Shown: positions 14,631 to 61,275, counted from the first letter of the whole stretch. The stretch is 63,619 nt of DNA, filler included, from Folioceros fuciformis (GCA_049999805.1; 10 parts of 10 records of this genome joined end to end with filler, not necessarily neighbours in it); one strand, 5' to 3'. Translations and numbers: made by a program. The notes: generated from the letters alone by a model not told the origin.

Positions 14631-16679
14631 TTGTAGATTGTCCAAGCATACTACACTGTGGATTGTCCAAGCATACTACACTGGATTGTCCAAGCACACT
14701 ATATTGCATATGGTCCATGCACAATGCCTTACATATGGCCTGTGCGTGGTCCATGCACAGTGCCTTATGTATGGTTCGTGTGGTCCCTGTAGATTGCCTT
14801 GCAACTTGTTGCATACATTGTCCTACACCTTGCCCCATAAATTGCCCTATAGCTTGTTGTGTAGATTGTCAATTGTTGTGGATGTAACTCTCTCACACAC
14901 CCTTGGTTCGTATTCTGTGCTCTCAAAGCCTACATACCATAATGAGATCGTGTTAGGGAAAAAATATGAGATGTGTTGTGCGATGCATGTCAAAGAGGAA
15001 AAAAAAGTCCTTGTCAGGTGATGGCTAGATTGGGATGCCACACACTGCCAATACAGTCATGTCCATAAGGTTAAGACTAAGGCACCATATGCAACACATG
15101 GCATGCCCATTAGGTTAAGACAAAGGCACTGTATACAACATGCGGCTGTCGGTATCGATATTCCATACCCCAAGATTATAAATGATAACATACATATGTG
15201 AATATGTTGACCATTACTTTAAATTATGACTAGTTGTAGAAATAGATATAAAGTATTATAGCTAGGCAAAAGGTTATGTCTATTCATTAGGGTTACAACC
15301 TTAGGTAAATAATTATATCATTTAGGCTTAGTTATACAAATGAAGCCTCTTTTGCATAATTTCATTTATGATTATCTTATAATCAANNNNNNNNNNTTCT
15401 TAATGATTAATTGGTTTGCATAATAGGTTATGTAGACCACTTTATTTGTTAGACCTAGCCAACCTGCAAGTCAAGCTATCTTATGTGGACACTTTGAAGA
15501 ACATCCTTGATCTTCTCACTAAGAGATTTCTCAAGGCTTAACATTAGAACCTTGCTACAACCATGGGCCTACATAACATACCTTGACTGCAAATTCAATT
15601 AAGGGATTTACAAGCTACTCCTCTTGGCCATAACATTAAATAAACAAGGCAGAATAACATATTAATCTTATCTATCACATTAGCATTAAGGGTTGAGGCA
15701 ACTACTTGCAGGAACACACAATAGGGCCCTAGCGCAGAGTTTGCAAAAATGAATAATGCATTGTGTGTCAACAAAGAGGACATAAAAGGGTGGCATGTTC
15801 ATCCTAACCGTGAGTAATTGCATTTTATCTAAATTTTTATTATTATCGACTTATTAATAACTAAGCCTAATAACCATTATGTTATGTACTGTTTAGGTTG
15901 ACCTTAAAAATAGCTATTCCAGTACTCCACCTCAGACCTAGCTGCCATAACTAGCTACGTTATCCAGTTGTGACGGCCCCAGCACTGGAGATTGAAACTC
16001 CTCAGCTCTTTTGCTATGGGCCATCCTCTGTTGCTGATAGTCGCCCATGCGCTAGAGGTCATCTTAGCAGCATTCATCATGGAACAAGTTGTGCGCCAAA
16101 CGATCGTATTCCGCCAAATCGGGCTTTGGGTGATTTTCTACATTATTTTTCGTGGCACCTATCCATGATTCATACTATTTGGTGTAGAAGACCCCCAAAT
16201 ATACGGAACAATGGTCGCGACGAACTTTGTATTCATCATGTTTACCCAGAAACTAGGCAAAATTGCGGGTTGCCAGCAGTAAAATTCCTTGATACTATCC
16301 AGTTCCACGGTTGGTCTGACACTACCGACTGCATCTAGACAAGACGATAATTTTTGAAATCAAAATTAGTAGAAATTAGAAAATGTTAAGGGTTTTTCAA
16401 TATCGACCTTTTACACATAGACGGAAGGAGTGCGCCGGTCTACCCGCGCACTCCTTCAAGAAGTGCGCTGAGTAGCTAGTGAACACCCAGATCGGGTCTG
16501 GGGAAAATGCAACACAACTATTCAAAATGGTTCGACGATAGGCTGGCGCATACATAGGCCGAGTTTGCCGCTCTATATGTGCACCCCCACAAGGGTAGTT
16601 ATGAATAGCCAACCACAGCTCTATGCAAACAGTGTTCATATATATGAAGTGTGGTATACATGAAAGTACTTAACCAGTA

Positions 16680-17490
16680 TAGTCTAAGTTTCTGCAAGTT
16701 GGTCGTCGATTTCATCTAGACGATTTTCTTGATCCCGCTTAAGCACATACAAGTTCTTTCTAATAAGGTTTCGAGTGCGAGCGTGCAGCTGTTTTTGACG
16801 AGTCAACTCAAATCCATACGCTAAAACAAAAGTGTTCGCGATAGATATTGTGTCAATATGCTTCCGAAGTCTTCTGCTTGGCCGTCACTTACGTCCTCGT
16901 CTAGAACCCATAGGAGGTTCTTCATTTGGCAATATCACCTCCTCTTGATATCGTCCTTCAAATGCATTTGAATATTTCGTGACCCACCAATGGACTGTGA
17001 TACTGTGAGTGTCATTTTTCTTCTGTGTGTCCAAAAATTTGGCGATCCAAAAAGGCCTGTTGTCTTCGTCTATCTCGCATGGGACAACAATCATGTGCCC
17101 TGCTTCTATCTCTGATACATCTCCACTGAAGTTGTCAACATCGTCGCGAACGTGTGCGTCTCTTCTATACGAACCCTCATACATATCTCTTCTAGGAACT
17201 TCTCGTATCCGTGGGTTTTCCAAAACCATAGCATCTGGCACGAGTGACAGGGTATTCAACAACTCGGCCTCGTCGAGATTATACCATCGCCATGGCCACA
17301 AAAGGTCTTGCTCCACACCCGAATTTATTATTTGAATGATGGCCTCTTGCTCTGCCCAAAATGAATCCCACCAGATGTCCTCGCCCAGACCTAAGTGCTG
17401 CCATAATTTGCACTCCAATCTTGACCAAATCTGCGACAGATTAAATCCTGGCACATCGTCAATAATAGTCTTCTGTTTCTACTCCTCACC
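16680..17490 (-). pseudogene. C-terminal part of a putative DNA-transposon protein, interrupted by an LTR
   Basis: GHMIVVPCEIDEDNRPFWIAK...VHWW...AFEGRY; reads on past the stop at 16885 as ...IDTISIANTFVLAYGFELTRQKQLHARTRNLI. The 22-bp palindrome lies downstream at about 16430. Family assignment is inference. Confidence 0.5.
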
Positions 17491-17491
17491 T

Positions 17492-18144
17492 TGTGGAGGC
17501 AAAACCTCGGGCACTAATTGCCGACGGGTTCCACCTTTAGTTGCCACACTTATCCAACTGTCGTTGAGACATTGGGTTTCGTTCCCACGAAGGAGGGATG
17601 GGGTTCCTTGCTGCTGTGGATGGAGGGTTGAACTTGATCGACTCGATGATGGATTCGAGGGCTCCCCTCCAACTTTGATCAGGCATAGGACAGGCCTCGC
17701 TGTCCGGCGGTCAGCTGCACCTCTCTCGGTGCCCACAAACTCACTCCAGTCACTACAACGACTCTAACCTCTTAGATCTGCGACTTCCCTCACTCACTTC
17801 ACTCACTCTCTGACTCCAGCACCAACACCAGCAACTACCAACAACTAGCAGCGACACCACTACCTTCTACACTTCCCTACTAACTCCTCCTACCCGGCAA
17901 GAGTCACTAGACTAACCCCAAAGAAAAGAAAGAAGGGAACACACTCCCCTCTTGGATATCTCCTCCCCACAACCTTACCAGACGCCATAAGACATGGCCG
18001 GCCTACAGCACTTGTCCAAGCAAGGAACAAGAGTGGATAGGTCCAGAAAAAGACACATCCTTTACAATCAAGAGCTAGGGGCAAGCCCCTTCACCCTGGT
18101 CATTACACCTCGTGATCCTACCAGACACTATACAACCGGCAACA
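17492..18144 (+). mobile_element. LTR family B segment (starts TGTGGAGGCAAAACC)
   Basis: Highly similar copies at 31836-32459 (reverse) and 52073-52800. Confidence 0.8.
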
Positions 18145-18244
18145 NNNNNNNNNNNNNNNNNNNNNNNNNNNNNNNNNNNNNNNNNNNNTTAATTAATTAA
18201 NNNNNNNNNNNNNNNNNNNNNNNNNNNNNNNNNNNNNNNNNNNN

Positions 18245-19989
18245 AAAGAATCCATCTCATCCAACATGCTTTCAGGATGGCTTTGAAGTGCACAACGTTT
18301 GAGGAAGCTGAAGTGTTGTATCCCAAGCATACGGAAGACGCACATCTACTCAGATTCCAAACCGCATTCGCAAAAGTGGTAAGCTTGCTTTTAGATCCCT
18401 CAGGTGTTTTCAGCATGCTGGTTGGAGTGCGCCGGTCTACCGGCGCACTACAGCCAGACCTCCACTCTTCTGCAATGTACATCGTTTTGCGAACAAAATG
18501 GCTGGAGTGCGCCGGTCTACCAGCACACTCCAGCCATTTTTCCGCAATAGTTACACACTGCGGAAGGGGTGCGCCAGTAGACTGACGCACTCCAGCTTTT
18601 CTCTCCGGATTGGGTCCCCGTTTTCCATCAATTTCTATGAAAGTGGCTAGAGTGCGCCGGTCTACTGACGCAATCCAGCCACGAGAAGAGTTTATCTCTT
18701 TAGGGTTTAGGATCAACGTAGTTCTCGATTTATGATTGTGCTTGTGGTGTGGTTGTTTTGACCAAACTGTTTGTTGGCAGAAACCCACGGACGACAACAA
18801 CCTTGAATCATTGCCGAAGCCTTTCCAAGATTATGTCTATTCAGCGAGAAATTGGAAGTGCATGGAAGAGGAAAAGCAGAAACTCACTGACACATATATG
18901 GATGCAGGATTATCAGAGTTTAGGGTCCCAAGCAGCAACTAGAAGACTAAGTATCAAGTAATCCAGCGAAACGTTTTGGAGATGAACGCATTTTTGGTAA
19001 AACGACCTTATACTCTGTTATTCGTTGATTTGCCTCACAGAATGCAACGCCATGAATTCAATAGGGTGCTAACAAGCGAAGAGCTTGAAGATATGATCAG
19101 AGGGTTTTCAGAATGCACGAGCAGTAATGTTTATAGGATGGTCCTCATACATGGCATGGACCTCATTACACAAGCTAGGGAAGCACTTCGGCCATGGTGT
19201 AAGAAGGGAACCATACAGACATTAGTATGGGAGAAGACCAAAATTCCTCCCAATGCAGGGGCAGTTGAGACTGTGGAATATTTAATTGTTGGAAGTGCAA
19301 TTCACTCTGAAGCTCAGGCCACAAAAGCTGCATTATTCGCGAATTAGGGAGTGGATTTCTTTTGCCGAGAGTTATAAGGCATGGAGCTGTGGTAAAGAAA
19401 CATCTGTTCCACTCAGCAGACTCTATGGTCATCTCGCTGTATCAAAAGCCCCTTGGGTTAATGGGTATGTAGCTCAATATGATTTCGACTGAAGGAGACT
19501 AGGTAGTGGATGCATGCGCAAGATCTGGGTCATTCCTTTAGGCTGCGATTCATTAGGAAGGCATGTTGTCGCAATAGACATTGATATACGATGCACGACT
19601 TATATTATGCAACGAGTGAATGGTGAAGGGTCTTTGCCAGATGCTGATGTGGAGATCAGCATAGAGCACTTCTCGCATGGCCCACGAAGTTTTGGGCCAA
19701 AGAAGTTTGCGCGGACAATAGCGTGGATCGTCGTATGCAAGTATTCAGTTTGCTGGGGGAAAAAGGAGAGATATTTTCTCAATCGGATGATAAACCAATG
19801 GAAGATCTTTACGCGATGATGATATGGGATGAGAATGGCACACTTCCGCCTCAGACTATGGACGACCCATATTTTTCTGTCCTGGACATGGAGGGAGATG
19901 ACTTTGGGGACACAGAGGGCCAGTGCCTAAAAGATGTAGATATAGTTGTCGATTCCGAGGCCAACCAAGACGTTCATGTTTTGGTGTAG
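18245..19989 (+). pseudogene. Beta-class DNA amino-methyltransferase (N6-A/N4-C fold) fusion gene, copy 1, disabled
   Basis: Exon to 18378, GT-AG intron 18379-18780, then YQVIQRNVLEM...LLFVDLPH (motif IV-like, 19027-19038)...LVWEK...VEYLIVG...YQKPLGLM...GD*VVDACARSGS...GRHVVAIDID. Several stops and frameshifts. Confidence 0.75.
18427..18673. repeat. Four copies of palindrome GTGCGCCGGTCTACCGGCGCAC within the intron
   Basis: Copies at 18427, 18507, 18569 and 18652. Further copies at about 16430, 20113 and 56635. Confidence 0.9.
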
Positions 19990-20749
19990 AGGTGATTTGG
20001 AGAGTAGCTGAAGTTCGTGGTACATTATGCGTATATTTAAATTTTTCTGTTAAACTCTTTAAATTCATGGCATGTAGATAGCCAACTTCCTGTCACCCAA
20101 ACATATTGTTGAGTGCGCCAGTAGACCGGCGCACCCGAAGTACAATTCGTTTTTTTCTGGAAATTTTTACAGTTCTAATGACTTATGTACCAGTTGGTTG
20201 TGGGCTGCAAGCAAATTTGTGGAGATGGATGGTGTCCACCACACGTCAAAATAAGTGATTTTTTTTAAAAAGGGCTTAAATGTGGATATGTGACTAGGAT
20301 GGTGTAAATTCAAATGTGCACCAAACGGGCTTCATAGAATACGACCGTTAGGCGCAGAACTTGTTCGGAGGCTTTTTTTCAGTTGGCACCGAATGGAACA
20401 ACCTCCAAAGTTTAGGAACTGGGGATGGAAGGTGTTGGACCGGAAGGGGGGNNNNNNNNNNNNNNNNNNNNNNNNNNNNNNNNNNNNNNNNNNNNNNNNN
20501 NNNNNNNNNNNNNNNNNNNNNNNNNNNNNNNNNNNNNNNNNNNNNNNNNNNGGGGTCGGAATTTTCCGATGACGTGGAAAGGGACAGAGGAGAGGAAACG
20601 CAAGGGCTGTCTCTCGTAGCAAGGCTTCAAATTGTCGGAATCCCCAGCCCCCGGTTTGACAGAATCGGTCGTTTGGTGTCTAGGGCCAATTTGGAGGCCA
20701 GGCACCTCCCCGTAAATGACTCGGCACAAGCTACTTTACAATCAGCACA

Positions 20750-21953: not shown

Positions 21954-22721
21954 GTGGGAGCTCCTCTGCACATACGCTAACTTCCTATACATTTATGTTT
22001 TTATCAAGAGTGAATTGGACGTGTTAGCTTGCTTCAAACGTGAATAGGAGTGTAGAGGTTATGGCTATTAGAGCCCTAGTTAGGGCACGTTTAAATATTA
22101 TACTTTACTGATTACTTAAGTTACTGTGATATGAATAGGCATCTTAGATTCAGTTTTTATAACTACTTTTATATGCTCTTCAAACATTGTCTTTGTTTAC
22201 TTTTTAATATATACACTTTTGTTCTAAGCTCCAGTGAAATCCATGCGCCTTCACACGTGCTTCAGCAGATACCGCCCCCACGTGAAAGCTATGTGACCCT
22301 CCTAGCTGTCCCTTAGCAAGTAGGTTCCTTGCATGTGTTCATGTCTTGGCCGCTACGGGGCGTTTAGACATGGCCTGGGACCGGAAGCGTAAGATTGCCA
22401 TGTTCCGATCCGCATGAAGAGAGNNNNNNNNNNTGCCATGTTCCGATCCGCATGAAGAGAGCGCCAGGCCGTACCTGATGTAGTCTTCTTCTTATGCGCG
22501 GAAGCCTGGAACAGTGGAGGATGATACAATAGTATAAGCCTGCACAGCAGCTGGGTGTACATACTTGCCGTTGACAAAGTTGACCCGGTAGCACCAATTC
22601 CCAGCCCATCAGCTTTCCCTGGTGCATATATAGGTACGGGCATAGACTGCAGGAGCCACACCGGTGCCCAGAGCCCAGAGCCCAGCAGCACCAACGATCA
22701 GCACCAACGTTCAGCGCAGCC

Positions 22722-23549
22722 GTGATGGCTTCCTCCTCGGCCTGGTCGCTCCAGTGTGTGCTTGTTGCTCTGCTTCTTTGCGTCGTGTCCAGTGAGGCGG
22801 GGGATGGGCACTCTCGGCCTCCAACTGTGAAATTCAGTGTCACCAAGTGGAAGGCCAAGTCGGGCATCACGCTGAGCGAGAGTGCGGCCTTCGCGGGCAA
22901 CGGCTCCTACGTGACCCTGTTGGGCAAGACCTCCAGCCAGAACAGCGCGGGAGGTGTGTTCCGAACCAAGTCCGTCTCCTTCGTCGACCCCCACACCAAG
23001 AAGGCCGCCTCCTTCAGCACCCGCTTCACGTTCGCCATCACTCCGGACAAGCGAAATACCATTGGCGACGGGCTGGCGTTTGTGATCAAGCCCACGCGCG
23101 CTGCCGCCGTGTCCGATCTTGGGGAGTACTTGGGGATCTTCGACCCCAACGCTCACTCCAACGGGGACCCCGCTATCAAGACGGTTGCGGTGGAGATCGA
23201 CACCTTCCAGAACACGGATTTCGACGACCCCCCAGTTCCCCACTTCGGCCTGGATGTCAACAGCATCGTGTCCGTTGCCACGGCTACCGGCGACAGCCTC
23301 GTCGTCGAGACTGACGATCCGCACAAGGTGACCGTGTGGGTGGATTACGACGCCAAGAAGCACGTCTTGACTGTGTCTGCGGCTAAGGCGCCCGCCAAGA
23401 AATCTCATGCAACGCGTCTCATCTCCTACAAGTCTCTCGATTTGGCAAGCATCATCAAGCCGAGGTCGTATGTGGGATTCACGGCTGGCAGTGGGTTCGC
23501 CACGGAAAACAATTTCGTCTACTCGTGGTCATTCAAGACGTTCTTCTGA
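22722..23549 (+). CDS. Secreted legume-type (L-type) lectin, intronless, no kinase domain
   Basis: 275-aa ORF with signal peptide, SFSTRFTFAI, GDGLAFVI, VAVEIDTFQN.DFDDP...HFGLDVNSIVS, VWVDYD, YVGFTAGSG, SWSF. Confidence 0.93.
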   Translation: MMASSSAWSLQCVLVALLLCVVSSEAGDGHSRPPTVKFSVTKWKAKSGITLSESAAFAGNGSYVTLLGKTSSQNSAGGVFRTKSVSFVDPHTKKAASFSTRFTFAITPDKRNTIGDGLAFVIKPTRAAAVSDLGEYLGIFDPNAHSNGDPAIKTVAVEIDTFQNTDFDDPPVPHFGLDVNSIVSVATATGDSLVVETDDPHKVTVWVDYDAKKHVLTVSAAKAPAKKSHATRLISYKSLDLASIIKPRSYVGFTAGSGFATENNFVYSWSFKTFF

Positions 23550-30639: not shown

Positions 30640-33060
30640 TTGTAACCACTAAGCAGCCTTACCCACTGTATGGGGAAAGGAAGGGTGACGAGGATCCTGA
30701 CGACTTTGTTGAGCATTTTGAGCAGTTGACCATTGCCAATCAGGAGGCAAGGGATGCGCAACGTGTTCCGCTGTTCTATGGAGTCTTGCATGGAGCTGCA
30801 GCCAAGTGGTACAAGCGGGAGTACCTCAAGTCGTCCACACCTCGAACCACCTTCCAAGCATTGAAGAGAACTTTTTGTGAGAGGTTTCGAGGAGTGGATG
30901 TTGAGGGATACGTCCTGTCCAAGCTCGAGAGGTTGCGAAGGAAGCCAAGGGAGACGTTGCAGGCCTATGTGGAGAGATTCCACAGCCTGCGGGACCGTGC
31001 TGGCCCCCATTCAGAGCTCATGGCAATACGCTGGTTTGCTAGGGGCCTAGGCACAATGATGGGGAAGCACGTACGACTCAAAGCTGAGAAGGATCTGGAC
31101 CGAGCAATCAGGGCTGCCCTGAACTACAAAGAGTCCAATGCGGAGGTGTGAACCTCCAAAGTTTGGGGTAGTGGTTTGTTTTGGTTAAAAAAGGGTTAAT
31201 AGNNNNNNNNNNNNNNNNNNNNNNNNNNNNNNNNNNNNNNNNNNNNNNNNNNNNNNNNNNNNNNNNNNNNNNNNNNNNNNNNNNNNNNNNNNNNNNNNNN
31301 NNATAGTGGTATGGTTTGGTTTTCTTTTTCTACTTCTTTTCCCTAATTTTCCTTTATTTTCTGGTCATTTTTCTTATTTTTCTTTGTGCTAATTGGTTAA
31401 TTGATCAGGAAATAGTTGGTTTGGTTATTAGAGTGGGTATAGGTTTGGTCCCAGACCTGGGAAAGTTCAGGTCCGGTACCGGGCCATAGGATTATTAAAG
31501 CCCAATGTAATTAAACTAATGTGATTAGTCTAAGATTATGTCTAATTAAGTATCATTAGTTTAGATTAGCTTAAGCTAATTTTTAGGAAGCTTCCTGCAT
31601 AGCTTCCTGTGAGCTTCTTGTGAAGCTTCCTTGGGAGCTTTTCTAGAGGGTATAAAGGGAGCTCTTGAGCTCCCTTTACAAGAGAGATGAGAGAGAGCTG
31701 TGTGAGAGATACTGTGAGACCTCTCTTTCTCCTCTCCTCCTCTCTTTCTCTCCTCTCCTCTCCTCCTCTCTTCCTCTCCTCTCCTCTCCCCTCCTCTTCT
31801 CCTTCATCATGTGGCTCCCTTTCCGGTCCTTCAAGGATCACAAGGTGTAATGACCAGGGTGAAGGGGCTTGCCCCTAGCTCTTGATTGTAAAGGATGTGT
31901 CTTTCTCTTGACCTGTCCACTCTTGCTCCCCGTTTGGACAAGTGCTATAGGCCGGCCATGTTTCATGGTGTCTGGTAAGGTTGTGGGGAGAAGATATCCG
32001 AGGGGGTGTGGGGGAAGTGTGTGCCCTTCTTTCTCTTCTTTGGGGTTAGTCTAGTGACTCTTGCCGGGTAGGAGGAGTCAATAGGGAAGTGTAGAAGGTA
32101 GTGGTGTCGTTGTTAGTTGTTGGTGTTGGTGTTGGAGTGAGAGAGCGAGTGAAGTGAGTGAGGGAAGTCGCAGATCTGAGAGGTTAGGGTTGTTGTAGTG
32201 ACTGGAGTGAGTTTGTGGGCACCAAGAGAGGTGTAGCTGACTGCTGGACAGCGAGGCCTGTCCTACGCCTGATCGGAGTTGGAGGGAAGCCCTCGAATCC
32301 ATCATCGAGTCGATTGAGTCCGACCCTCCATTCACAGCAGCAAGGAACCCCATCGCTCCTTCGTGGGAATGAAACCGAATGTCTCAACAACAGTGGGATA
32401 AGTGTGGCCACTAAAGGTGGAACCCGTCGCCAATCAGTGCCCGGGGTTTTGCCTCCACAGAAGGAGAGGAAGAAATCAAGGAAGGACGAGAGGAAGGGCC
32501 GGGGAGATAAGAAGAAATCCAAGAAGACCAAGAAGAAGTACTCCTCGTCCTCGGATGATAATTCAACGGAGCAAGAGAGCTCTTCCCAGGACTCCTCTGA
32601 TAGCTCCACGGAGGAAGAAAAAGAAGAAATCAAGAATCGAAGCGGAGTGGAAGCGCCACACCCGAAGGGAGGAGCTGGTGAAGGCAAAACATGATCTTGC
32701 AAGTGCAAGGAAGGATGCTGAACATGTGAGGAGGGACTTAGGCTGGAAGACAGGGATGCTGTGACTTGGCGACAGTAGGTAGTCGAAGCGGCTACTGGTA
32801 GCCGAAGGAACAACGCTGGTTGCCGAAGGGAGACGACGGTTACTGAAACCCCTACCTGCACCAGGAGGCTTGGAATAGCAATAATTGCAGCCAGAGTGAC
32901 AGGAGGCAACCAGCATCCTGGGAGGAGAGAGAGTGCACAGCCAGGATGGGTCAGCCAGCAGCAGGAGTGAGGAAGGATTTGCCCAATTTAGCAGTAAGGA
33001 GGGAGAGCGTGAAGATTTTGTGTGGCACGGGAAGGTGGGCCAGAAGAATAACTAGGAGGA
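30640..33060 (+). mobile_element. Gypsy-type gag ORF split by a nested insertion (about 31147-32459)
   Basis: EDPDDFVEHFE...LHGAAAKWY...FCERF...ETLQAYVERF...WFARGL; continues as the K/S-rich linker at 32460. Confidence 0.75.
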
Positions 33061-35593: not shown

Positions 35594-36548
35594 AGTAACA
35601 ACGCTGGTTTGAGTGCCAAGCAAGTAAGCTCCATGCAGAGGCATGTTTAGCAGAGCAGGTTACTACGAGCATGAGAAGCATGCAACCCTAGGAAAAAGTG
35701 TGTGGTACTGAATAATAACTTAAGGCTTAAGTAAATGCTTAAGTAAGTAGTTGCTAAGTTAGTGACTTGAGCTTGTGTATAAAAGGGGACCTAGCCAAGG
35801 GCTAAGGCAAGTTCAGTACAGTTGAGTTGAGATCAGTATCTCCTCAAAGCCTTGAGAGCACTAGGTGCTTGGGCTACGCCTTGAGAGCACTAGGTGCTTG
35901 GGCTACGCCTTGAGAGCACTAGGTGCTTGGGCTGCACCTTGAGAGCACTAGGTGCTTGGGCTCCGCCTTGAGAGCACTAGGTGCTTGGGCTCCGCCTTGA
36001 GAGCACTAGGTGCTTGGGCTGCACCTTGAGAGCACTAGGTGCTTGGGCTGCACCTTGAGAGCACTAGGTGCTTGGGCTACGCCTTGAGAGCACTAGGTGC
36101 TTGGGCTCCGCCTTGAGAGCACTAGGTGCTTGGGCTACGCCTTGAGAGCACTAGGTGCTTGGGCTACGCCTTGAGAGCACNNNNNNNNNNGCTACGCCTT
36201 GAGAGCACTAGGTGCTTGGGCTACGCCTTGAGAGCACGTGTTGCTTGGACTGTGAGAGCACATGAAAGGTGCTGTGAAGGAGCTGTAGGAGGAGGTCAAG
36301 AGAAGGGAGAGCTAAGCTCCTAGCTTAGGCAAAGATGGGGAGTTCTCTCTAGCCCTTCAACACTGTATATTCTTGTTGACTCGTGATTTGAATAAAGAGT
36401 AGCCAGCACCCTTGTTCTTGTTGACTGGCAGCCAGCACCCTACTGGGCTACTTGGAGGCCTAGTGCTGTGTCCGGTGTTTAATAACTGACCCTTGCCTTT
36501 GCTTCTGACTACGTGGTTACACCCCACCCCGCTCAAGGGGGTGTTACT
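35594..36548 (+). mobile_element. Solo-LTR-like insertion with AGTAACA...TGTTACT ends and 5-bp TSD ATTAT
   Basis: TSD at 35589-35593 and 36549-36553. TATAAAAGGG at about 35778 and AATAAA at 36391. Confidence 0.75.
35850..36238 (+). repeat. 29-bp minisatellite, at least 12 copies
   Basis: Unit cttgagagcactaggtgcttgggctacgc. Confidence 0.95.
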
Positions 36549-38104: not shown

Positions 38105-40653
38105 ATGATCGCAGCGCGCTCGCTGGCCATGGCGATGGCGACGAAGCTGCTGCCTTCCGCCGCCGGGGTGACGGCTGCAGCGGCCTCCTCCTCCAGGTTC
38201 TGCTGCACATTGGGTGCCACCCGGGTGCACCATGCGGTACGGTGCCGTGTGGGATTCGGGGTTTCGGCGCCCTCGCCCTCTCTAGCGTTCCCCGTCCTAC
38301 GCCGCCGGGGGGTCTCCACTGTTTCCGCGGCCATGGCACAGGAGCAGCAGGAGCAGCAAGAGCATCAGCACGATTGTGAGGGGCTGGTAGACAACAGGAT
38401 GCCGATCACGGTCATCACGGGTTTTCTGGGGTCGGGGAAGGTGAGCAAGGGGGAGCAGGAACTGGAGGGCGCGTGGTTTTTCTTGTGAAGGGATCGGGTC
38501 TGTTGGTCGGTTGGCTTGACTGCCTCGCACCTGAACGAATTGTGGCTTTGGCGGGATTAATTTTGTAGGAACTTCGAGTGACGATGCCGGAAATGCAATT
38601 CCCCTGCTGCTGTGGGTCGGAAGCATGGCCCACTCTTTGGATTTTGAGCGAGTTCTTTCCTTGCTTGTGCCGCGCAGCGGTGTGACGCCTGGGTGGGGTT
38701 TGTGTGTGTCGCAGACCACGCTGCTGAATCACGTGCTTACGGCGCAACATGGAGTGAAGATTGCGGTTATTGAGAACGAGGTACACAGCACTGGCACGTG
38801 GCTGGGGTTGTTTTTTTTCTCTTGACCGGCGTAGTGGAGAGGTTCTGAGGTGGGTCTTGGTTGTCCATCGATTGAAGTTTGGGGAGGTAGGCATCGACGA
38901 TGCACTTGTCGCCACGGCGGAAGCTGCTGCCGAGGACCTTATTTTGCTCAACAATGGCTGTCTGTGCTGCACTGTTCGGGGTGACCTTGTGCGTATGCTG
39001 GGAGACCTCATGCATAGGAGGAGACAAAAGGAGATAAGCTTCGATCATGTCTTGATCGAGACTACAGGTACGCCTCTTCCCGGAATCCTCAGGCGGGTTT
39101 CAGGGTTATTTTTGTATACTGTTGGCGTGAGACTTGCAATGGAACTTCTACGGTGCAGGACTCGCGAATCCTGCGCCGATCATCCAAACCTTCTACGCGG
39201 ACGAGACGATCTCGCCTGTTGTCAGATTGGACGGAGTTGTCACTATGGTTGATGCCAAGCATGCACAACAGCACATTGAGGAAGTGAAACCAGACGGAGT
39301 TGTAAACGAAGCCGTGGAACAGATTGCCTATGCGGACAGGATCATTCTGAATAAGGTGAGTTTCTCGGAGTACATTGGTGTGCATGGCTTTCGAATCGGG
39401 CTGCATTCCTCGTCCTGTCCATGGCATTCGGACTGGGAAACTTCTCGGTGTACTCCTCTTTCTTCAGAATCGATTGCCGATCTCTTGTTGCATTGTGCAG
39501 ATTGATTTGGTGGAAGAGGCAGACAGGAAGATCCTTGAGGAGCGAATAAGGGTATGTATTTGGACAAGTCACGTTTCCGCAAACTGGCTCTTGTTGTTCA
39601 AAACTTCTGCAATTTAGGGGATATTGAATAGACAACGTTGCGCGTCCTGGACAGACGACTCCAGTACATGTCCTGACGTTTGTTGCCCCTGTTTACCCAG
39701 AAAATCAATGGCATGGCGCAAATTGAAAAGACGAACTATGGGAAAGTGGACGTGAAGTATGTGTTGGGAGTTGGAGGGTTTGACCTCGCAAGGTTGGTTG
39801 TTCACCTGGCTTTCTAGTGTGGCGAATCCCATGACTCCTCGTGTGTAATTTTTCTTCTTGGATAACTGTCTTGGGGACTGTCTCTGCAGAGTTGCAGCTG
39901 ATATTGATGTCGAGGGAGCAGCTGCTGCGGTGAAGGGGGGTCATGGTGAATGCAAGGAGGATCACGTACATGATGAACACTGCGGGCACGGTAGATCAGC
40001 GTGTGCTTTCCCGCTTTGTTTGCACTAGCAATCTGGTGCACGGTATCTTATCTCTGCTTAATGATAGGTCATTCGCATGACCATGGTCATGATCACAAGC
40101 ACGAGCACGGTCATGATCATAGCAAGCACGACCATGTTCATGATCCTGGAGTTTCTTCTGTCAGCATTGTTCGTGAAGGGTACCTCGACCTAGCTAAGGT
40201 TTGCTCCTCTTTTTAATGTATTCCTGACTGCGAGTAGGGTTCCCCCGGTCTCGTGTGCACTCGGAACAGGAATTCCATGAGTATCGTAGGTTTGAAGCAG
40301 TGATGCAGATTGACGTTTTTTTTTGGTGTGCAGCTGAATAGGTGGGTTGAGGCCTTGTTGGAGAATGAAAGTGAAAACATCTACCGAATGAAGGGTGTCT
40401 TGAATATTGAAGGCTTCCCAGAGCGCTATGTATTCCAGGTATGTTGGGATTTTCGCTTCTATTCCTATGTCTTTGTAAACTGTGTCTGATCATCGATATT
40501 GCGCAGGGGGTGCATTCCCTGTTCGAAGGTTGTATTGACCGGGATTGGAAATCGGAGGAGGAGCGAATTAGCAAGATGGTCTTTATTGGGAAGAAGTTAG
40601 ACGCAGAAGCCCTGAAATCTGGGTTTGAGAAATGTCTTGTGGAAGCAAAATAA
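38105..40653 (+). CDS. COG0523/CobW-family G3E GTPase metallochaperone (ZNG1/PTAC17-like), probable plastid transit peptide; 10 exons
   Basis: Exons 38105-38440, 38715-38780, 38878-39067, 39159-39355, 39501-39551, 39701-39792, 39890-39990, 40068-40198, 40334-40438, 40507-40653. Motifs GFLGSGKT, GCLCC, ETTGLANP, NKID, His-rich insert, YRMKG, QGVH. Confidence 0.93.
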
Positions 40654-42034: not shown

Positions 42035-44962
42035 ATGGCGTTGCGGCAGCTTCTGGAGCAGGTACGGGGCCTGGGCTACGGTCACTCTGCACCTGTAACT
42101 AGTTCCTGGTCCTTGTCACCAGAATGGCCTCCGAACATTTTTCCTCGCTGGCGTGCTCTGCAGGGCGGCCACGCAGCTAAGCAGATGGCGTCGGCCCAGT
42201 ATTTAATGGCGTCGCTTTCAGGAGCCCGCGCTCAAGCGCTAGGGTTTTTCAGAGCTGGTAAGGTGGCATTTTTTTGTCAGCGCTAGAGATTGCTGCAGGG
42301 AATAACGGTCTCGGTGTAGGAGCTGATTCTGTGGGTTGTCGAGCAGCCGGGTGCCATTCCCAACGACGCCGTTTTTCTAGCTACCTGGGGAATTTCAATC
42401 GAAAATTGGAGCAAGTGGAGAGGGAAATCCATGTAGATGATAAGCAGGCGAATGTTTTGAAGGAGTTGAACAAAATTGACCCCGAAAGTGTGATCAGGTG
42501 GTTTGAGAGTAGACCCATCTCTCAGCATAGTCCTGGAGCTCTCGCCGAATACGTGAAGGCTCTTGTGAAGGTGGATAGACTGGATGAGAGTTCGTTGCTG
42601 AGGACTCTTCGTCGGGGTAAGAAGCTGGTGTCGACTTTCACCATTGGCACCTACCTCCTTTTGGGTCGGCCCCAGAGGTCTCATCTTGTGTTGATGTAGG
42701 GGCTGCGACCTCATCCTCGTACCAAGCGGAACCTGCTGTGAACATGGCGGCTGCCTCTCCAATTCTGGGCGCGGTTGGTATGCAAACAAAAGATGGCGTC
42801 CTAGGCACGGCCAATGCCCCGATTCACATGGTAGCAGCAGAGGGCGGACTTAAAGTACAAGCCTGGCGGACGTTCCGCACCCTCGCTTTGGGATTCCTCT
42901 TGCTCTCTGGGGTTGGAGCTCTCATTGAAGATAGAGGCATCGGCAAGGGTAAGCTTTTTACACTCACTTGTTTTTCGCGAGAGGGAGGGTGTACAGCCAT
43001 CGGGGTCTTGCCTGAACGCATCATCCCATGTCCAGCAAATTAATTTTAGCGTGTAAACCCTAAAGGCTGGGTGATTTGTACCTGTGGTCTGAAGATAACA
43101 GACGAACGGGTGGGATTCAGCTCCAGCTTGAAGTACATACATGGATGTTGTATAAATTGTGCTCTGGCATTGCCCACTGTTTAGGATGTGGCAGATGAAG
43201 CCCGGCGCAAGAATGATTTGTAGCTACGGAGATTCAGACGTTGCACTCATTCAAATGGTTTTATTGCAGGGCTGGGCTTGAATGAAGAGGTACAGCCAAG
43301 CATGGAATCCAGCACCAAGTTCAGTGATGTGAAGGGTGTGGATGAGGCAAAGGCTGAGCTCGAGGAAATTGTACATTACCTACGAGACCCAAAGGTTGTC
43401 ACATCTCTGCATGTTCTTCCGCTTTTGCTGCTGACGAGCAGGTCTAACTCACGTGGGATATTTTTGGTTGTACAGCGTTTCACTAGGCTTGGGGGCAAGC
43501 TTCCTAAAGGTGTGCTACTAGTAGGCCCGCCTGGGACAGGGAAAACCATGTTGGCACGAGCGATTGCAGGGGAAGCTGGAGTTCCTTTCTTTTACTGCAG
43601 TGGCAGCGAATTTGAAGAGATGTTTGTGGGTGTGGGAGCTAGGAGGGTGCGGGATTTGTTTGCCGCCGCAAAGAAGAGGTCGCCTTGCATCATATTCATG
43701 GACGAGATTGACGCTATTGGAGGAAGTAGGAACCCTAAAGATCAGCAGTATATGAAGATGACACTGAACCAGTTGCTTGTGGAGTTGGATGGGTTCAAGC
43801 AAAACGAGGGAATTATTGTGATTGCTGCGACCAACTTTCCAGAATCTTTGGATAAAGCCCTCATAAGGCCTGGTCGATTTGACCGCCACGTGGTTGTTCC
43901 CAATCCTGACGTGGAAGGAAGGCGCCAGATCCTGGATGTCCACATGACTAAGGTAAGTACTCTGAAACTCTATCGATTGTGAGTATTACTCGTCTCAGGA
44001 ATTGTGGTCTTCTGATGGTCATTATTGTCGTAATTGTGCAGGTCCCGAAGGCAGACGACGTGGATCTCACCATCATTGCAAGGGGCACTCCTGGGTTCTC
44101 TGGCGCAGATCTTGCAAATCTGGTGAATGTAGCTGCATTGAAGGCTGCGATGGATGACAAAAAGAATGTCTCCCTTTTTGACCTAGAATTTGCAAAGGAT
44201 AAGATAATGATGGGCAGTGAACGGAAGTCTGCTGTGATTTCGGAGGAATCCAGGCGACTCACTGCTTACCATGAAAGTGGCCATGCTCTTGTGGCTCTGC
44301 ACACTGATGGTGCTCTTCCAGTGCACAAGGCCACTATTGTTCCAAGGGGGATGGCTTTGGGGATGGTTTCTCAGTTGCCTGATAAGGATGAAACGAGTCA
44401 TTCGCGAAGGCAAATGTTAGCACGTTTGGATGTGTGCATGGGAGGTCGTGTTGCTGAAGAGCTCATCTTCGGGGAGGGTGAGGTTACATCTGGGGCATCT
44501 TCAGATATTGTATCAGCAACCCGGCTGGCAAGGGAAATGGTTACAAAGTATGGAATGAGCAAGGCTGTGGGAGTAGTTGCTCATAATTACGACGATGATG
44601 GTAAGAGCATGAGCACTGAGACTAGGTCACTTGTGGAGAATGAAGTTAAGGAATTATTGCAAACGGCTTATGAGAATGCCAAGCACATTCTGTGTACGCA
44701 TCAGAGAGAACTCCATGCCCTAGCAAAAGCGCTTCTGGAACATGAGACCATGACGGGGGCAGAAATTAAAGGTCTGCTTGCTGAGGTGAATGCAAAGCAC
44801 GCTGCGAAATCAGCCATCCTGCCAACTCCTGCCGTCGCTCCAGCTGTTGCTCCTTCAGCGGCAGTCTCTGCTGCCGGTGCAGCCGCAGCGGCAGCAGCGG
44901 CGGCGGCGGCGGCGAAGGCCAAGAGTGTTGCTCAGCCTGCTTCCCAGCCTGCTGGCACTTGA
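42035..44962 (+). CDS. FTSH4: Mitochondrial i-AAA zinc metalloprotease FtsH4 (YME1-like); 7 exons
   Basis: Exons 42035-42061, 42164-42257, 42347-42616, 42700-42948, 43270-43394, 43476-43952, 44042-44962. Motifs [26 protein letters not shown]; Ala-rich tail. Confidence 0.95.
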
Positions 44963-52072: not shown

Positions 52073-52800
52073 CCACCTTTAGTGGCCACACTTATCCCAC
52101 TGTCGTTGAGACATTGGGTTTCGTTCCCACGAAGGAGCGATGGGGTTCCTTGCTGCTGTGGATGGAGGGTCGAACTTGATCGACTCGATGATGGATTCGA
52201 GGGCTCCCCTCCAACTCTGATCAGGCGTAGGACAGGCCTCGCTGTCCGGCGGTCGGCTGCACTTCTCTCGGTGCCCACAAACTCACTCCAGTCACTACAA
52301 CGACCCTAACCTCTTAGATCTGCGACTTCCCTCACTCACTTCACTCACTCTCTCACTCTAGCACCAACACCAGCAACTAACAATGACACCACTACCTTCT
52401 ACACATCGCTACTGACTCCTCCTACCCGGCAAGAGTCACTAGACTAACCCCAAAGAAAAGAAAGAAGGGAACACACTCCCTCTTGGGTATCTCCTCCCCA
52501 CAACCTTACCAGACGCCATGAAACATGGCCGGCCTACAGCACTTGTCCAAACAAGGAACAAGAGTGGACAGGTCGAGAGAAAGACACATCCTTTACAATC
52601 AAGAGCTAGGGGCAAGCCCCTACACCCTGGTCATTACACCATGTGATCCTACCAGACACTATACAACCGGCAACACGCTGCCCGCGATCCTACTAGACAC
52701 TGTACAGCCGGCAACACGCTGCCTGCGATCCTACCAGACACTATACAACTGGCAACACGCGGCTTGCGATCCTACCAGACGTTGCACAGCCGGCAACACA
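52073..52800 (+). mobile_element. LTR family B copy with 44-bp tandem repeats (about 52640-52800)
   Basis: Matches 17530-18144. Repeat core gatcctaccagacactatacaaccggcaacacgc. Confidence 0.8.
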
Positions 52801-56419: not shown

Positions 56420-56869
56420 CTAGATGGGCGGATTTCACAAAGCCCATTTTGTCCATTTGAAATTTGTCTTGATCCGAGCTCCTTATCTACCTTTGATTTA
56501 TTTTCACAAACAATGACGCCACCGACATGTATGAGTATATTATTTTTTCTCCAAATGTCAATAAAACCAAAATAAATGAAGTAAACATATTGAGTCTTCT
56601 ACACGAAACTTGATATTTCGCAACTAAAACATATGGTACACCGGTCAACTGGTGCACAAACTATTCAAAGTACTTCACGTTCAAGTTTAGAACGAGTTCA
56701 AGTTAAGTCAAGTTTATTGTTCAAACAAAAACTAGGTCATCTTGGTTGGCTTCGGAATCCACAGCTACANNNNNNNNNNNNNNNNNNNNNNNNNNNNNNN
56801 NNNNNNNNNNNNNNNNNNNNNNNNNNNNNNNNNNNNNNNNNNNNNNNNNNNNNNNNNNNNNNNNNNNNN

Positions 56870-58945
56870 GGCTTCGGAATCCACAACTACATCTAAATCT
56901 CTCAGCCGTTGTGCATTCGTATCGCCAAAGTCATCACCACCAACTCGTAGCACCGAGAAGTTGGGGTCCTCTGTAGTTTGGGGCGGCAAAGTACAATTCT
57001 CATCCCAGACGGTGATGGCGTAAAGGTCCTCCGTAGGCGTATCATCAATCTGGGACATGACCTCTCCTTTCTTGCCCAACATACTAAACACCATCATTTT
57101 GCGATCTACGCTCTCATCACCACACACTTCCTTTGCCCAAAACTTTGATGAGCCTCATGTAAACGGCTCTATTGTAATCTCCTCATCTGTGTCAAACAAA
57201 GACCCTAGCCCGATAATCCGCTGCATAATATATGAAGTGCACCTCACATCCACATCGATAGCCACCACATGCCTTCCATGCTGAGCTGCACTTTGGAGAA
57301 GAGATCTCGAACCTACGCATGCATCAACCACCCAGTCCCTTTCACAAGAAAACATATTAATAAGCATATTCATCAACCCTAATGGTTTTTGGTAAGGGGA
57401 GACAACATGCGCATCTGCTGAATGAAAAAGGTGCTTCTTCACCACCGCTCCATGCCTTATAACCTGTGGTAAGAGAAATCCCTAATTCGCAAAAAGTGGA
57501 GCCTTCGATTCTTGAGCCTCTGTTTGCACTGCACTTCCAACAGTCACATATTCAACTGTTTTCACTACTCCTGCGTTTGGGGGTAAGTTAGTCTTCTCCC
57601 ATACCAATGTCTGAATGCTCCCCTTCTTGCACCATGGTCGTTGGGCAATGACTCCAAGTCCACTATATCTCGAGGTTTCTGCAACCAGAATAGTACACGT
57701 TAGTTTGGCTACCGATTTGGCTACTTTACCCTAAGCAGACATGAGTGTACCGGTAGACCGGTGCACTGGGGTCCCAACCGGGAGAAGTGCACCAGTCTTC
57801 TGGCGCCCTTGAACCCTAGCCGGCTACACTAGTGCGGCAGTCTGCCGGCGCACCGGAGCGCGAAACGTCGGGAGTGCACTGTTCTACCGGCTCACTAGAG
57901 CCCGAGCAAGGGGAAGTGCGCCGGTCTACCGGCGCATTGTATCCCGCGCTAGGTGCCCAAGTGCGCCGGTCTACCGGCGCATTATATCTCGCGCAGGGTG
58001 CCCAAGTGCACCGGTCAACCGGCGCACTGTTGCCCGAGCCGCTACCCATTGGAGCTCGAGCCGGCATCAGTGCGCCGGTAGACCGGCGCACTGGAGCCCG
58101 AGCAGGCATCAGTACACCGGTAGACTGGCGCACTAGAGCCCGAGTCGGTAGCAGTGCGCCGATAGACCGACGCACTCGAGCTTCAGCCGGCAGTAGTGCA
58201 TTGGTAGACCGGCGCACTGATGCCCGAGCCTGCAGCAATGCGTCGGTAGACCAGCGCACAAGAGCCTCAGCCGGCAACAGTGCGCCAGTAGACCGGCGCA
58301 CTCTAGTCCGAGCCTGCCCACTCGTTTAGACTGGCGCACTGGAGCCCGAGCAGGACTAGAGTGTGCCGGTCTACCGGCGCACTCTAGTCCAATCCAATGC
58401 ATTATGGGGGAAGGAAAACAACAGCAAACAGAAAAAACTTACCACTTTGGCGAAGGCTATCTAGAACTGTAAAAGATGGCCATCTTTAGTATGCTTCGGG
58501 TACATCTCCTCTGCTTCTTCAAAGGTGTCACACTTCATCACGATTTGGAAGGCATGTTGTATCAAGTGAATCTTCTTCAAACTTCCTGGCTTTAGTGTCC
58601 ATGTCTCTCAATTGAAGCTTGCCCTGAATAACCTTTTGTGTCACCGCAATCAACATCTCCTCTCCCTTCACACCTATTGGGACACCTTGAAAGGCTCTCC
58701 ATGGCCTGCCCTGCATCACTCCTGGCCTCCTGCTGCTATCTTCCGTCACTTGGGTAACAGAACTTTGTAGGGCAGAATCTCTTGTCTTCCGTTCCGCCTT
58801 TGCCCTCTTTGTGGTCCCTACTGTTACCGTGCTCTTCTGCTCTAGCAACTCACACTGTTCCCACATTCTGAATATCCTGTCCACATTGTCCCAAAGAACC
58901 CCAAAACATATGGCTACTCGATATGGCAAAGTCTGCCTATCCAGC
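56870..58945 (-). pseudogene. Beta-class DNA amino-methyltransferase fusion gene, copy 2, with internal deletion
   Basis: Exon 58945-58443, intron 58442-57679, then KPRDIVDLESLP jumps to RPWCKKG...YQKPLGLMNMLINMFSCERDWVVDACVGSRS...GRHVVAIDVD. Colinear with copy 1. Confidence 0.75.
57745..58390. repeat. Array of about 15 palindromic 22-bp repeats, 42-45-bp period, intronic
   Basis: Starts at 57745, 57787, 57832, 57874, 57916, 57961, 58006, 58070, 58112, 58154, 58196, 58238, 58280, about 58318 (partial) and 58361. Confidence 0.92.
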
Positions 58946-59155
58946 TGTGGAGTGGTTTCTTGCATCCAAGAACCACCAAAGGACCACACTTTCCCTTATT
59001 GTCGTTGCAGCCTTATGATTCGCTCCCAAGGGAGTGAACTAGCATCAAGGAACACCTACGACTGTCTACTCACACTTCTACCTATCAACCGGTCCCTAGG
59101 CCTGACCACACACACCAGCAAAAAGGCAAGAATCCTAGCCTATCTTCAGATCACC
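58946..59155 (+). mobile_element. LTR family C start (TGTGGAGTG), inserted in the MTase gene
   Basis: Also at 63141-63619 and reversed at about 61700-62165. Confidence 0.75.
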
Positions 59156-61039: not shown

Positions 61040-61275
61040 TAGGCTTAGGTTGGGGTTAGGATTAGGTCAGACCTAGGTTAGGTTTAGGTCATACCTAGGT
61101 TAGGTTTAGGTCAGACCTAGGTTAGGTTTAGGTCAGACCTAGGTTAGGTTTAGGTCATACCTAGGTTAGGTTTAGGTCATACCTAGGTTAGGTTTAGGTC
61201 AGATCCAGGTTAGGACAGACCTAGATTAGGTCAGGATAGGTCATACTTAGGTTAGGTTTAGGTCAGAACTGGATG
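61040..61275. repeat. 22-bp tandem repeat with telomere-like core
   Basis: Unit taggttaggtttaggtcagacc, about 10 copies. Confidence 0.9.

What the first reader, a model, noticed from the sequence alone, without database searches (positions are those of the whole stretch)
57745..58390. Hairpin-repeat array (GTGCGCCGGT-CT-ACCGGCGCAC) inside the MTase intron in both copies
Seen: about 15 palindromes at a 42-45-bp period in copy 2 and 4 at a 62-83-bp period in copy 1. The intron is at the same codon (AFAKV|KP), but the sequence between the repeats differs. Loop orientation flips from CT to AG mid-array, so the two halves could fold back on each other. Inference: keeping the motif while spacers turn over suggests protein-binding sites (transposase or MTase) or an RNA/ssDNA structure. 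It is CG-dense (GCGC, CCGG) despite C-to-T decay nearby.
Basis: partly seen in the sequence, partly recalled or inferred. Interest (0 to 1): 0.75.

Follow-up and report, generated by a model that had tools for sequence, protein, structure and literature searches.

The report
Transposon palindrome array inside an intron
A 24-base GC-rich palindrome is repeated about 15 times in one intron of a decayed transposon-borne methyltransferase-like gene in a plant-like genome, and it most likely marks docking sites for a transposon protein, an arrangement already known from other plant transposons.

Summary
The motif AGTGCGCCGGT-NN-ACCGGCGCACT occurs 21 times in the window (0-1 in shuffles). Fourteen full units and one truncated unit fill 640 of 764 nt of the copy-2 intron at periods of 42 or 45 bp. 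Four lie in the copy-1 intron. Both introns split the same codon pair (AFAKV|KP).

The motif is not confined to the intron. One unit lies 3' of the stop codon in each copy. Another lies in a neighbouring assembly piece, near a 30-nt block that is the inverted repeat of a block at the copy-1 3' end. These look like transposon ends with a subterminal palindrome.

The core is the same in both copies (22/22 consensus positions), although the exons are only about 70% identical. Within one array the core has fewer mismatches than the spacer (13/144 against 24/108, p=0.004). CpG o/e is 0.98 in the array and 0.36-0.62 beside it.

Best reading (about 0.5): reiterated binding sites for an element-encoded protein, expanded by tandem duplication. 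This resembles CACTA subterminal palindromes and VANDAL21 intron arrays. Replication template switching would explain the flipped loops and extended arms.

No Rfam family and no literature match was found. A genome-wide scan of the source plant was not possible.

The parts
57744..58383 (.). Copy-2 array: 14 palindromic units of AGTGCGCCGGT-NN-ACCGGCGCACT plus one unit lacking its left arm (58327-58351). Periods are 42 and 45 bp.
57679..58442 (-). Intron of MTase-like pseudogene copy 2 (phase 0, GTAAG...CAG, between AFAKV and KP). The array fills 640 of its 764 nt.
   Evidence: Sequence read; frames; exon homology stops 7-8 nt inside the donor end of the intron.
18379..18780 (+). Intron of MTase-like pseudogene copy 1, at the same codon position.
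18415..18681 (.). Four palindromes in the copy-1 intron with longer arms (18-22 nt). The unit at 18506 sits at the centre of an imperfect palindrome of about 106 bp.
20112..20135 (.). Palindrome 122 nt after the copy-1 stop codon (loop AG).
56635..56658 (.). Degenerate palindrome (6 mismatches, 4 of CpG-decay type) 62 nt after the copy-2 stop codon, beyond an N gap.
   Evidence: (E 2e-4)
16429..16452 (.). Palindrome in the neighbouring assembly piece (loop CT). It is the mirror image of the unit at 20112 and lies 432 nt downstream of a 197-aa ORF on the - strand.
   Evidence: I10
16082..16111 (+). Left inverted block (candidate element end). It contains GTGCGCC, the heptamer of the palindrome arm.
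   Evidence: (I6: 30 nt, 90% complementary)
20337..20366 (-). Right inverted block (candidate element end). Similarity to the left end stops sharply at its outer base.
18247..19989 (+). MTase-like pseudogene copy 1. It starts at an assembly gap and carries in-frame stops and frameshifts.
56721..58995 (-). MTase-like pseudogene copy 2. It matches PF01555 at 57155-57481, has a stop in exon 1 and a deletion of about 340 bp in exon 2, and is interrupted by an N gap at 56770-56869.
16888..17478 (-). 197-aa ORF of unknown family pointing toward the left block. It may be a second element gene. It is cut at 17476 by an unrelated repeat.

Best explanation
The palindrome is a reiterated cis-acting motif of a DNA-transposon-like element that carries an N6/N4-type methyltransferase-like gene. 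It is most likely the docking site of a dimeric element-encoded protein, either the transposase or an accessory protein.

One unit sits a few hundred bases inside each putative element end. Further units accumulated in the gene's first intron and were multiplied there by tandem duplication (slippage or unequal exchange): to 4 in one lineage and about 15 in the other.

Selection on active copies keeps the 11-bp half-sites, while spacers are free to change. Replication template switching at the hairpin explains three features: the flipped central dinucleotide, the perfect arms, and the outward growth of some palindromes.

Shown: motif anatomy, distribution, relative conservation and the inverted end blocks. 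Inferred: that a protein binds the motif, which protein it is, and the template-switch history.
For: 1. Specificity. All 21 sites and all 27 half-site matches lie in the three element pieces. None lies in the other ~55 kb of the window.

2. Half-sites occur only as tail-to-tail pairs 2 bp apart.

3. Conservation. The core consensus is identical in the two copies at 22 of 22 positions. Exon 2 is 69.7% identical, with transitions:transversions of 124:109. The intron flanks align only with many gaps. In the six-unit 42-bp array, core mismatches are 13/144 against 24/108 for the spacer (Fisher p=0.004). At non-CpG sites they are 7/96 against 17/84 (p=0.015).

4. Position. A unit follows the stop codon in both copies. 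A mirror-image unit at 16429 lies 347 nt inside a 30-nt block that is 90% complementary to a block 232 nt beyond the unit at 20112. The two ends align as inverted repeats with score 161, against 101.5 +/- 10 and a maximum of 123 in 50 shuffles. Similarity stops sharply at both outer edges.

5. The left block contains GTGCGCC, the heptamer of the palindrome arm; the right block has CTGCGCC (read).

6. Precedents, from passages read. In VANDAL21, VANC-binding motifs form tandem repeats in introns and terminal non-coding regions, with copy number differing between related copies (PMC5735166). Soybean CACTA Tgmt* has 24 subterminal repeats forming 12 palindromes in 732 bp, and in Spm/En TNPA binds the subterminal repeats (PMC2613891). 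Template switching creates and repairs stems and inverts loops (PMC8794818).

7. The outer arms differ between units yet stay complementary. Cells changed on both sides number 42, against 27.7 +/- 4 in shuffles (0/500). The covariation score is 0.196, against 0.075-0.127 for slid controls.
Against: 1. No transposase domain was found. None of the 98 ORFs of >=110 aa scanned, out of 106 listed, matched one. The 8 left out lie in the MTase pieces or the array; 4 of these, each to within 3 nt of the listed coordinates, were scanned.

2. No target-site duplication flanks the two blocks.

3. The two 'ends' lie on different assembly pieces, whose order and orientation are not guaranteed.

4. Both gene copies are dead, so current function cannot be assumed.

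5. Core-versus-spacer conservation could also come from self-templated repair of a palindrome.

6. The units are related by duplication, so the shuffle controls overstate significance, as the tool itself warns.

7. Some apparent compensatory changes are paired CpG decays.

8. Only one window was examined. No genome of the source organism could be searched.
Confidence: 0.5

Rival explanations
1. A functionless GC-rich minisatellite whose unit happens to be a palindrome. Tandem duplication made the arrays. Hairpin-templated repair or template switching and gene conversion among units keep the arms alike and CpG-rich. No protein or RNA role is needed.
For: The array units are old and diverged: TRF gives 70% matches for the 42-bp array and the 126-nt copies are 63-77% identical. 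Most mismatches are of CpG-decay type, so the units are decaying. The loop flips and the ~106-bp nested palindrome are what template switching produces (PMC8794818). The genes are pseudogenes.
Against: Concerted evolution acts within a locus. It does not explain an identical core in two copies whose exons differ by 30%. It also does not explain single units at matching positions after the stop codon and near both inverted end blocks. Core and spacer of a unit share one duplication history, yet they differ in mismatch rate.
Confidence: 0.2
2. The motif works at the RNA level. Hairpins in the intron and 3' UTR of the transcript, or a long foldback of the array, feed small-RNA production or modulate splicing and 3'-end formation.
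For: Predicted folding is strong: z -18.8 for the copy-2 intron and -7.5 for the copy-1 intron. Single units fold at -9 to -19 kcal/mol as DNA. All units near genes lie in transcribed non-coding parts (intron, 3' of the stop). The outer arms co-vary.
Against: Both arms are conserved in sequence, not only in pairing (the 11 core pairs hardly vary). Stems of 11-22 bp are short for plant Dicer substrates (general knowledge). No Rfam family comes near its gathering score; the best is 37.7 bits against 100. Local hairpins alone (-332.9 kcal/mol) fold little better than whole shuffled sequences (-317). The unit at 16429 and the end blocks point to a DNA-level role.
Confidence: 0.12
3. Each palindrome is a tiny mobile or self-inserting unit (a MITE-like or REP-like micro-element) that invaded the intron and flanks independently in either orientation.
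For: The loops occur in both orientations. Spacing in copy 1 is irregular with unrelated spacers. Short GC-rich palindromic mobile repeats exist in bacteria and fungal mitochondria (recalled, not checked here).
Against: No direct repeats flank the units (flanks read). There are no units anywhere else in ~55 kb of transposon-rich sequence. Positions are conserved between diverged copies (same intron, same 3' region). Copy-2 units are in strict 42/45-bp register, which is tandem duplication and not insertion. A scan of 185,579 prokaryotic genomes found only 21 single sites in unrelated taxa and no arrays.
Confidence: 0.06
4. The palindromes are the recognition sites of the element's own methyltransferase-like protein. 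That protein methylates or simply occupies them, and so shields the array from host 5-methylcytosine silencing and decay.
For: The gene is a PF01555 relative (atlas). Enzymes of this class act on short palindromes, often as dimers (general knowledge). The array keeps CpG o/e at 0.98 while the flanks are at 0.36-0.62. The motif holds CCGG and GCGC.
Against: At the catalytic motif position the copies read DLPH, and the unnamed relatives read DLPRG, instead of (D/N/S)PP(Y/F/W). Only the cofactor-binding half matches Pfam or solved structures. A 24-bp site is far longer than usual methylase sites. Units do show CpG decay.
Confidence: 0.07

Closest known systems
Subterminal repeat arrays of CACTA (En/Spm, Tgm) transposons
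   Same: A short motif is reiterated in direct and inverted orientation so that it forms a row of palindromes or stem-loops. Soybean Tgmt* has 24 repeats forming 12 palindromes in 732 bp. In Spm/En these repeats are bound by the element's TNPA protein and are needed in cis for transposition (PMC2613891, passages read). Motif sequence differs between subfamilies.
   Different: Here the main array is in an intron, not at the ends. The motif is GC-rich with an 11-bp half-site. No CACTA terminal repeat was seen: 28 matches at <=3 mismatches against 21 +/- 4.5 by chance, and none at the blocks. No TNP2 or TNP1 domain was seen in the window.
VANC-binding motif arrays of Arabidopsis VANDAL21 (Mutator superfamily)
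   Same: Binding motifs of an element-encoded protein accumulate as tandem repeats in introns, intergenic and terminal non-coding regions of the element. Repeat number differs between related copies (PMC5735166, passages read).
   Different: The VANC motif is 9 bp (YAGTATTAY), not palindromic, and arrayed in one orientation. No MULE transposase or VANC-like domain appeared in the Pfam scans of this window. A methylation effect is unknown here.
Hairpins made and maintained by replication template switching
   Same: Arms are perfect, the central loop is inverted without inversion of the flanks, and palindromes extend outward. All are listed outcomes of template-switch mutations (PMC8794818, passages read).
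   Different: That work concerns RNA genes. It explains how such palindromes change, not why the same 22 bases persist in diverged element copies.
Bacterial-type N6/N4 DNA methyltransferases in eukaryotes (bdelloid N4CMT)
   Same: The host gene of the intron belongs to PF01555. This family was reported as exceptional in eukaryotes: the bdelloid enzyme 'has no eukaryotic homologs' (PMC8885841, passage read).
   Different: The gene here has introns, lies in a repeated element and is decayed. It lacks the canonical catalytic tetrapeptide. Its relatives are a handful of unnamed proteins at about 30% identity.

Membership tests
CACTA (En/Spm) subterminal repeats | Element ends with CACTA-type terminal inverted repeats and a 3-bp target duplication | tested here: not met
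   The pattern search gave no excess and no hit at the candidate ends (the pattern was recalled from memory). The candidate ends start GAACAAGTT. The flanks do not repeat.
CACTA (En/Spm) subterminal repeats | Element encodes a TNP2-type transposase | tested here: not met
   No such Pfam domain in the 98 ORFs scanned or in the 10 fragments. The element pieces are incomplete, so absence is weak evidence.
CACTA (En/Spm) subterminal repeats | Short motif reiterated in direct and inverted orientation within a few hundred bases of each end | tested here: inconclusive
   There is one palindrome 232-347 nt inside each candidate end. The large arrays are internal, in the intron.
VANDAL/VANC-type anti-silencing target arrays | Motif arrays in introns and terminal non-coding regions, with copy number varying between related copies | tested here: met
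   4 against about 15 units in the same intron of two copies, plus units near the ends.
VANDAL/VANC-type anti-silencing target arrays | Mutator-type transposase and a VANC protein in the element | tested here: not met
   No MULE or other transposase domain. The 197-aa ORF has no family and its model is unusable (pLDDT 36).
VANDAL/VANC-type anti-silencing target arrays | Protein binding to the motif and loss of DNA methylation | not testable with these tools
   Needs ChIP or EMSA and methylome data.
Helitron 3' hairpin | A single GC-rich hairpin about 10-12 nt before a CTRR 3' end, and a Rep/helicase gene | tested here: not met
   There are arrays of 4-15 units, inverted end blocks and no Rep or helicase domain. 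The definition is recalled.
MITE-like insertion | Each unit flanked by a target-site duplication, with copies scattered independently of a parent element | tested here: not met
   No flanking direct repeats. No unit outside the element pieces in this window. A genome-wide test was not possible.
Known RNA families (Rfam 15) | Score at or above the family gathering threshold | tested here: not met
   The best hit is 37.7 bits against a threshold of 100 (mir-1269 model). All 14 listed hits are far below threshold.
PF01555 N6_N4_Mtase (host gene of the intron) | Pfam gathering score | tested here: met
   57155-57481(-) scores 32.4 bits against a cut-off of 26.7, covering the C-terminal part of the profile only. 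5 of 6 unnamed relatives also pass.
PF01555 N6_N4_Mtase (host gene of the intron) | Catalytic motif IV, (D/N/S)PP(Y/F/W) | tested here: not met
   Copy 1 reads DLPH. Relatives read DLPRG in 4 of 5 and DIPYG in 1 of 5. The motif definition is recalled.

The most novel reading that the evidence does not exclude
A plant transposon carries its own bacterial-type amino-methyltransferase-like protein together with a CpG-rich array of that protein's palindromic landing sites. The protein marks or occupies the array, in the intron and at both ends. This keeps host 5mC silencing and C-to-T decay away, as a self-contained epigenetic shield analogous to VANC but built from a restriction-modification-type fold.
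Probability: 0.07. Interest if true: 0.85.

Novelty: new variant of a known kind. Interest (0 to 1): 0.42.

Why it matters
If the reading is right, this is another case where a transposon concentrates its protein-docking motif in an intron and near its ends. Here the motif is unusually long, GC-rich and palindromic, and the element carries a methyltransferase-like gene of a type thought nearly absent from eukaryotes.

It gives a clean sequence handle for three tasks:

- finding the whole family in the source genome (a 24-nt motif plus a 30-nt end block);
- testing which element protein binds the motif;
- asking whether the array escapes or attracts DNA methylation.

The in-place loop flips and nested palindromes are also a compact natural example of template-switch mutation in a plant genome.

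Tried and rejected
Homologue and naming searches
- Searches with the MTase fragment (longer proteins) and with the 197-aa ORF found nothing.
- The exhaustive search with a copy-1 fragment gave 8 weak hits at about 30% identity. One of them (P0001) is a low-complexity repeat protein and was ignored.
A word search with P0005 returned 3 unnamed proteins from one source.

The 197-aa ORF
- The atlas gave only a weak lead (recognition 2050, below 2300; a cluster with DUF7869 on 20% of its members).
- 'DUF7869' is in no paper of the library.
- The single-sequence structure model was unusable (pLDDT 36), so no fold search was run.

Literature
- Searches for the motif strings returned only unrelated primers, and the two 12-mers had 0 occurrences in all 20 of the 82 matching papers that were listed.
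- PF01555 + transposable element + plant gave nothing on such an element in the 6 listed of 7 matching papers, judged from titles and abstract openings.

Other checks
- A prokaryote-wide scan found 21 singleton sites and no arrays.
- A CACTA terminal repeat search showed no excess.
- The extra copy of the end block at 8125 has 3 mismatches and is within chance.
- ORFs of about 169 aa cross the array on both strands. They are side effects of 42/45-bp periods (multiples of 3) in stop-poor sequence. They are not in frame with exon 1.

Not checked
- Any eukaryotic genome collection: none is on hand.
- The metagenome and viral collections, which are closed.
- bioRxiv supplements.

Full report
**Setting**

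The window is a draft patchwork. It has 36 runs of N: 100-N gaps, 10-N gaps and N44-TTAATTAATTAA-N44 linkers. Order and orientation across gaps are therefore uncertain.

Pfam hits on 98 of the 106 ORFs of >=110 aa show copia and gypsy retrotransposon proteins, a legume-lectin domain, an FtsH protease and cobW. This is a transposon-rich nuclear region of a plant-like genome. No transposase domain was found.

**The host gene**

Two diverged pseudogene copies of one gene carry the arrays.

- Copy 2 (- strand, 56721-58995) matches PF01555 N6_N4_Mtase above the gathering score: 32.4 bits against 26.7, cofactor-binding half only. The atlas agrees.
- Copy 1 (+ strand, 18247-19989) starts at a gap.
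- Both copies have stops and frameshifts.
- Exon 2 is 69.7% identical between the copies (536 of 769 columns; 124 transitions, 109 transversions). Exon 1 is 71% identical. Protein pieces are 65-75% identical. The copies are therefore old relatives, not recent duplicates.
- At the catalytic-motif position the copies and most relatives read DLPH or DLPRG rather than the canonical tetrapeptide.

**The observation**

The 24-nt palindrome AGTGCGCCGGT-NN-ACCGGCGCACT occurs 21 times at <=6 mismatches, against 0-1 in shuffles.

Copy 2 holds 14 full units and one that has lost its left arm, in 57744-58383. Spacings are 42 (8 times), 45 (3 times), 64 and 81. Copy 1 holds four units at spacings of 80, 62 and 83.

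Both introns are phase 0 with GTAAG...CAG borders, between AFAKV and KP. Copy 1 is 18379-18780 and copy 2 is 57679-58442. Copy 2 then lacks about 340 bp of exon 2.

Loops in copy 2 (+ strand) read AG, CT x5, CA, AG x6, CT.

**What the unit is**

In copy 1 the repeated entity is a palindrome of 38-46 nt (TGGCTGGAGTGCGCCGGT..ACCGGCGCACTCCAGCCA), with arms up to 22 nt.

In copy 2 the 42-bp period is a 24-nt core plus flanks of the form GGCnnn...nnnGCC and a 6-nt linker. The copy-2 array is thus the same unit packed head to tail.

Half-sites never occur alone. All 27 matches at <=1 mismatch lie in palindromes or in the truncated unit.

**Beyond the intron**

A unit follows the stop codon in both copies: at 20112, and a decayed one at 56635. 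The 3' regions of the two copies are homologous for about 450 bp.

A further unit at 16429, in the neighbouring piece, is the mirror image of the unit at 20112 (I10). It lies 347 nt inside a 30-nt block (16082-16111). That block is 90% complementary to a block at 20337-20366.

The two end regions align as inverted repeats: score 161, against 101.5 +/- 10 in shuffles. Similarity stops sharply at both outer bases.

This looks like the two ends of a unit of about 4.3 kb that was interrupted by an unrelated repeat (17476-18144). A 197-aa ORF points to the left end and the MTase-like gene points to the right end. No target duplication is seen, and the pieces may come from different copies.

The left block contains GTGCGCC, the heptamer of the palindrome arm.

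**Conservation**

- The core consensus is identical between copies at 22 of 22 positions, with ties at two positions in copy 1.
- At the exon divergence, chance identity over 22 positions would be about 4e-4. This comparison is rough, because a consensus removes recent decay.
- The intron flanks align only with many gaps.
- Inside the six-unit 42-bp array, mismatches to the consensus are 13/144 in cores and 24/108 in spacers (p=0.004). At non-CpG sites they are 7/96 against 17/84 (p=0.015).
- CpG o/e is 0.98 in the array, 1.14 in cores, 0.77 in spacers, 0.36-0.62 in the flanks and 0.59 in the window.
- Most core mismatches are nevertheless of CpG-decay type. The units do decay.

**Structure**

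- Single units fold as DNA hairpins of -9 to -19 kcal/mol, with z from -2.5 to -9.2.
- The introns fold far better than shuffles: z -18.8 and -7.5.
- With pairs limited to 50 nt the copy-2 intron reaches -332.9 of the unrestricted -419.5 kcal/mol. A large foldback is therefore optional.
- The core pairs hardly vary. The outer arms vary yet stay complementary: 42 cells are changed on both sides, against 27.7 +/- 4 in shuffles (0/500), and the covariation score is 0.196 against 0.075-0.127 for slid controls. Relatedness of the units inflates these figures.
- The unit at 18506 is the centre of an imperfect palindrome of about 106 bp (44 of 63 columns).
- Spacers after the CT-loop units at 57831 and 57873 run in the same direction as those of the AG-loop units. 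The loop flipped in place.

**Interpretation**

Five features point to a cis-acting site for a dimeric element protein, multiplied by tandem duplication:

- the half-sites are conserved in sequence;
- they occur strictly as pairs;
- the centre is free to change;
- one unit lies near each putative end;
- unit numbers in an intron are variable.

Plant transposons offer direct precedents. VANDAL21 has VANC-motif arrays in introns and terminal regions (PMC5735166, passages). CACTA elements have subterminal repeats that form rows of palindromes and, in Spm/En, bind TNPA (PMC2613891, passages).

Template-switch mutation accounts for the loop inversion, the perfect stems and the arm extension (PMC8794818, passages).

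The rivals are:

- a neutral palindromic minisatellite;
- an RNA-level hairpin function;
- independently inserting micro-palindromes;
- target sites of the MTase-like protein.

None is excluded. Each fits fewer of the facts.

**Known families**

No Rfam family approaches its threshold. There is no relevant literature hit for the motif. Only 21 singleton sites were found in prokaryotic genomes. Membership in CACTA, VANDAL or Helitron families is not met, for lack of their defining ends and proteins. The resemblance is functional, not familial.

**Limits**

The key test, genome-wide co-localisation, therefore remains undone. All inference rests on three element pieces in one draft window.

Noticed in passing
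16082-16111 and 20337-20366: A 30-nt inverted pair (90% complementary) with weaker inverted similarity extending several hundred bases inward, ending sharply at GAACAAGTT. These are candidate termini of the MTase-bearing element. No target-site duplication was seen.
   Followed up: partly
18247-19989 (+) and 56721-58995 (-): The intron's host gene is a PF01555 (bacterial-type N6/N4) methyltransferase-like gene with a spliceosomal-type intron. It is present as two decayed copies about 70% identical. The catalytic-motif position reads DLPH/DLPRG. Only a handful of unnamed relatives exist. A paper on bdelloid N4CMT states that its PF01555 enzyme has no eukaryotic homologs.
   Followed up: partly
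56750-56769 and 56870-56886: The same coding stretch (..VDSEA..) appears on both sides of the 100-N gap. The two pieces probably overlap and the gap is artificial.
   Followed up: no
whole window; e.g. 18145-18244: There are 36 N runs, including 100-base spacers built as N44-TTAATTAATTAA-N44 (a six-frame stop linker). The window is a chain of contigs, so adjacency is not evidence.
   Followed up: yes
16888-17478 (-): A 197-aa ORF with no Pfam family and no homologue found. Its 3' region carries the palindrome. The atlas lead to eukaryotic hypothetical proteins (one cluster with DUF7869 on 20% of members) is weak. It is cut at 17476 by a repeat also present at 52073-52675 (94%) and 31834-32475 (89%).
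   Followed up: partly
57816-58329, both strands: ORFs of 169 aa on both strands run through the array, because the 42- and 45-bp periods are multiples of three and the unit is poor in stop codons. They are not in frame with exon 1, so they are probably meaningless.
   Followed up: partly
18462-18573: The palindrome at 18506 is nested in an imperfect palindrome of about 106 bp. The unit at 20112 also shows weak extended symmetry. This suggests stepwise outward growth of palindromes.
   Followed up: partly
12020-12767; 13544-14622; 35849-36248; 61054-61267: Other sizeable tandem arrays in the window: 63 bp x12, 30-50 bp units over about 1 kb, 29 bp x13.8 and 22 bp x9.8. They are unrelated in sequence to the palindrome.
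   Followed up: no
22584-23546; 38758-39502; 43224-44959: Apparent host genes among the transposons: a legume-lectin domain ORF, cobW-domain ORFs, and an FtsH-type AAA protease (AAA + Peptidase_M41).
   Followed up: no
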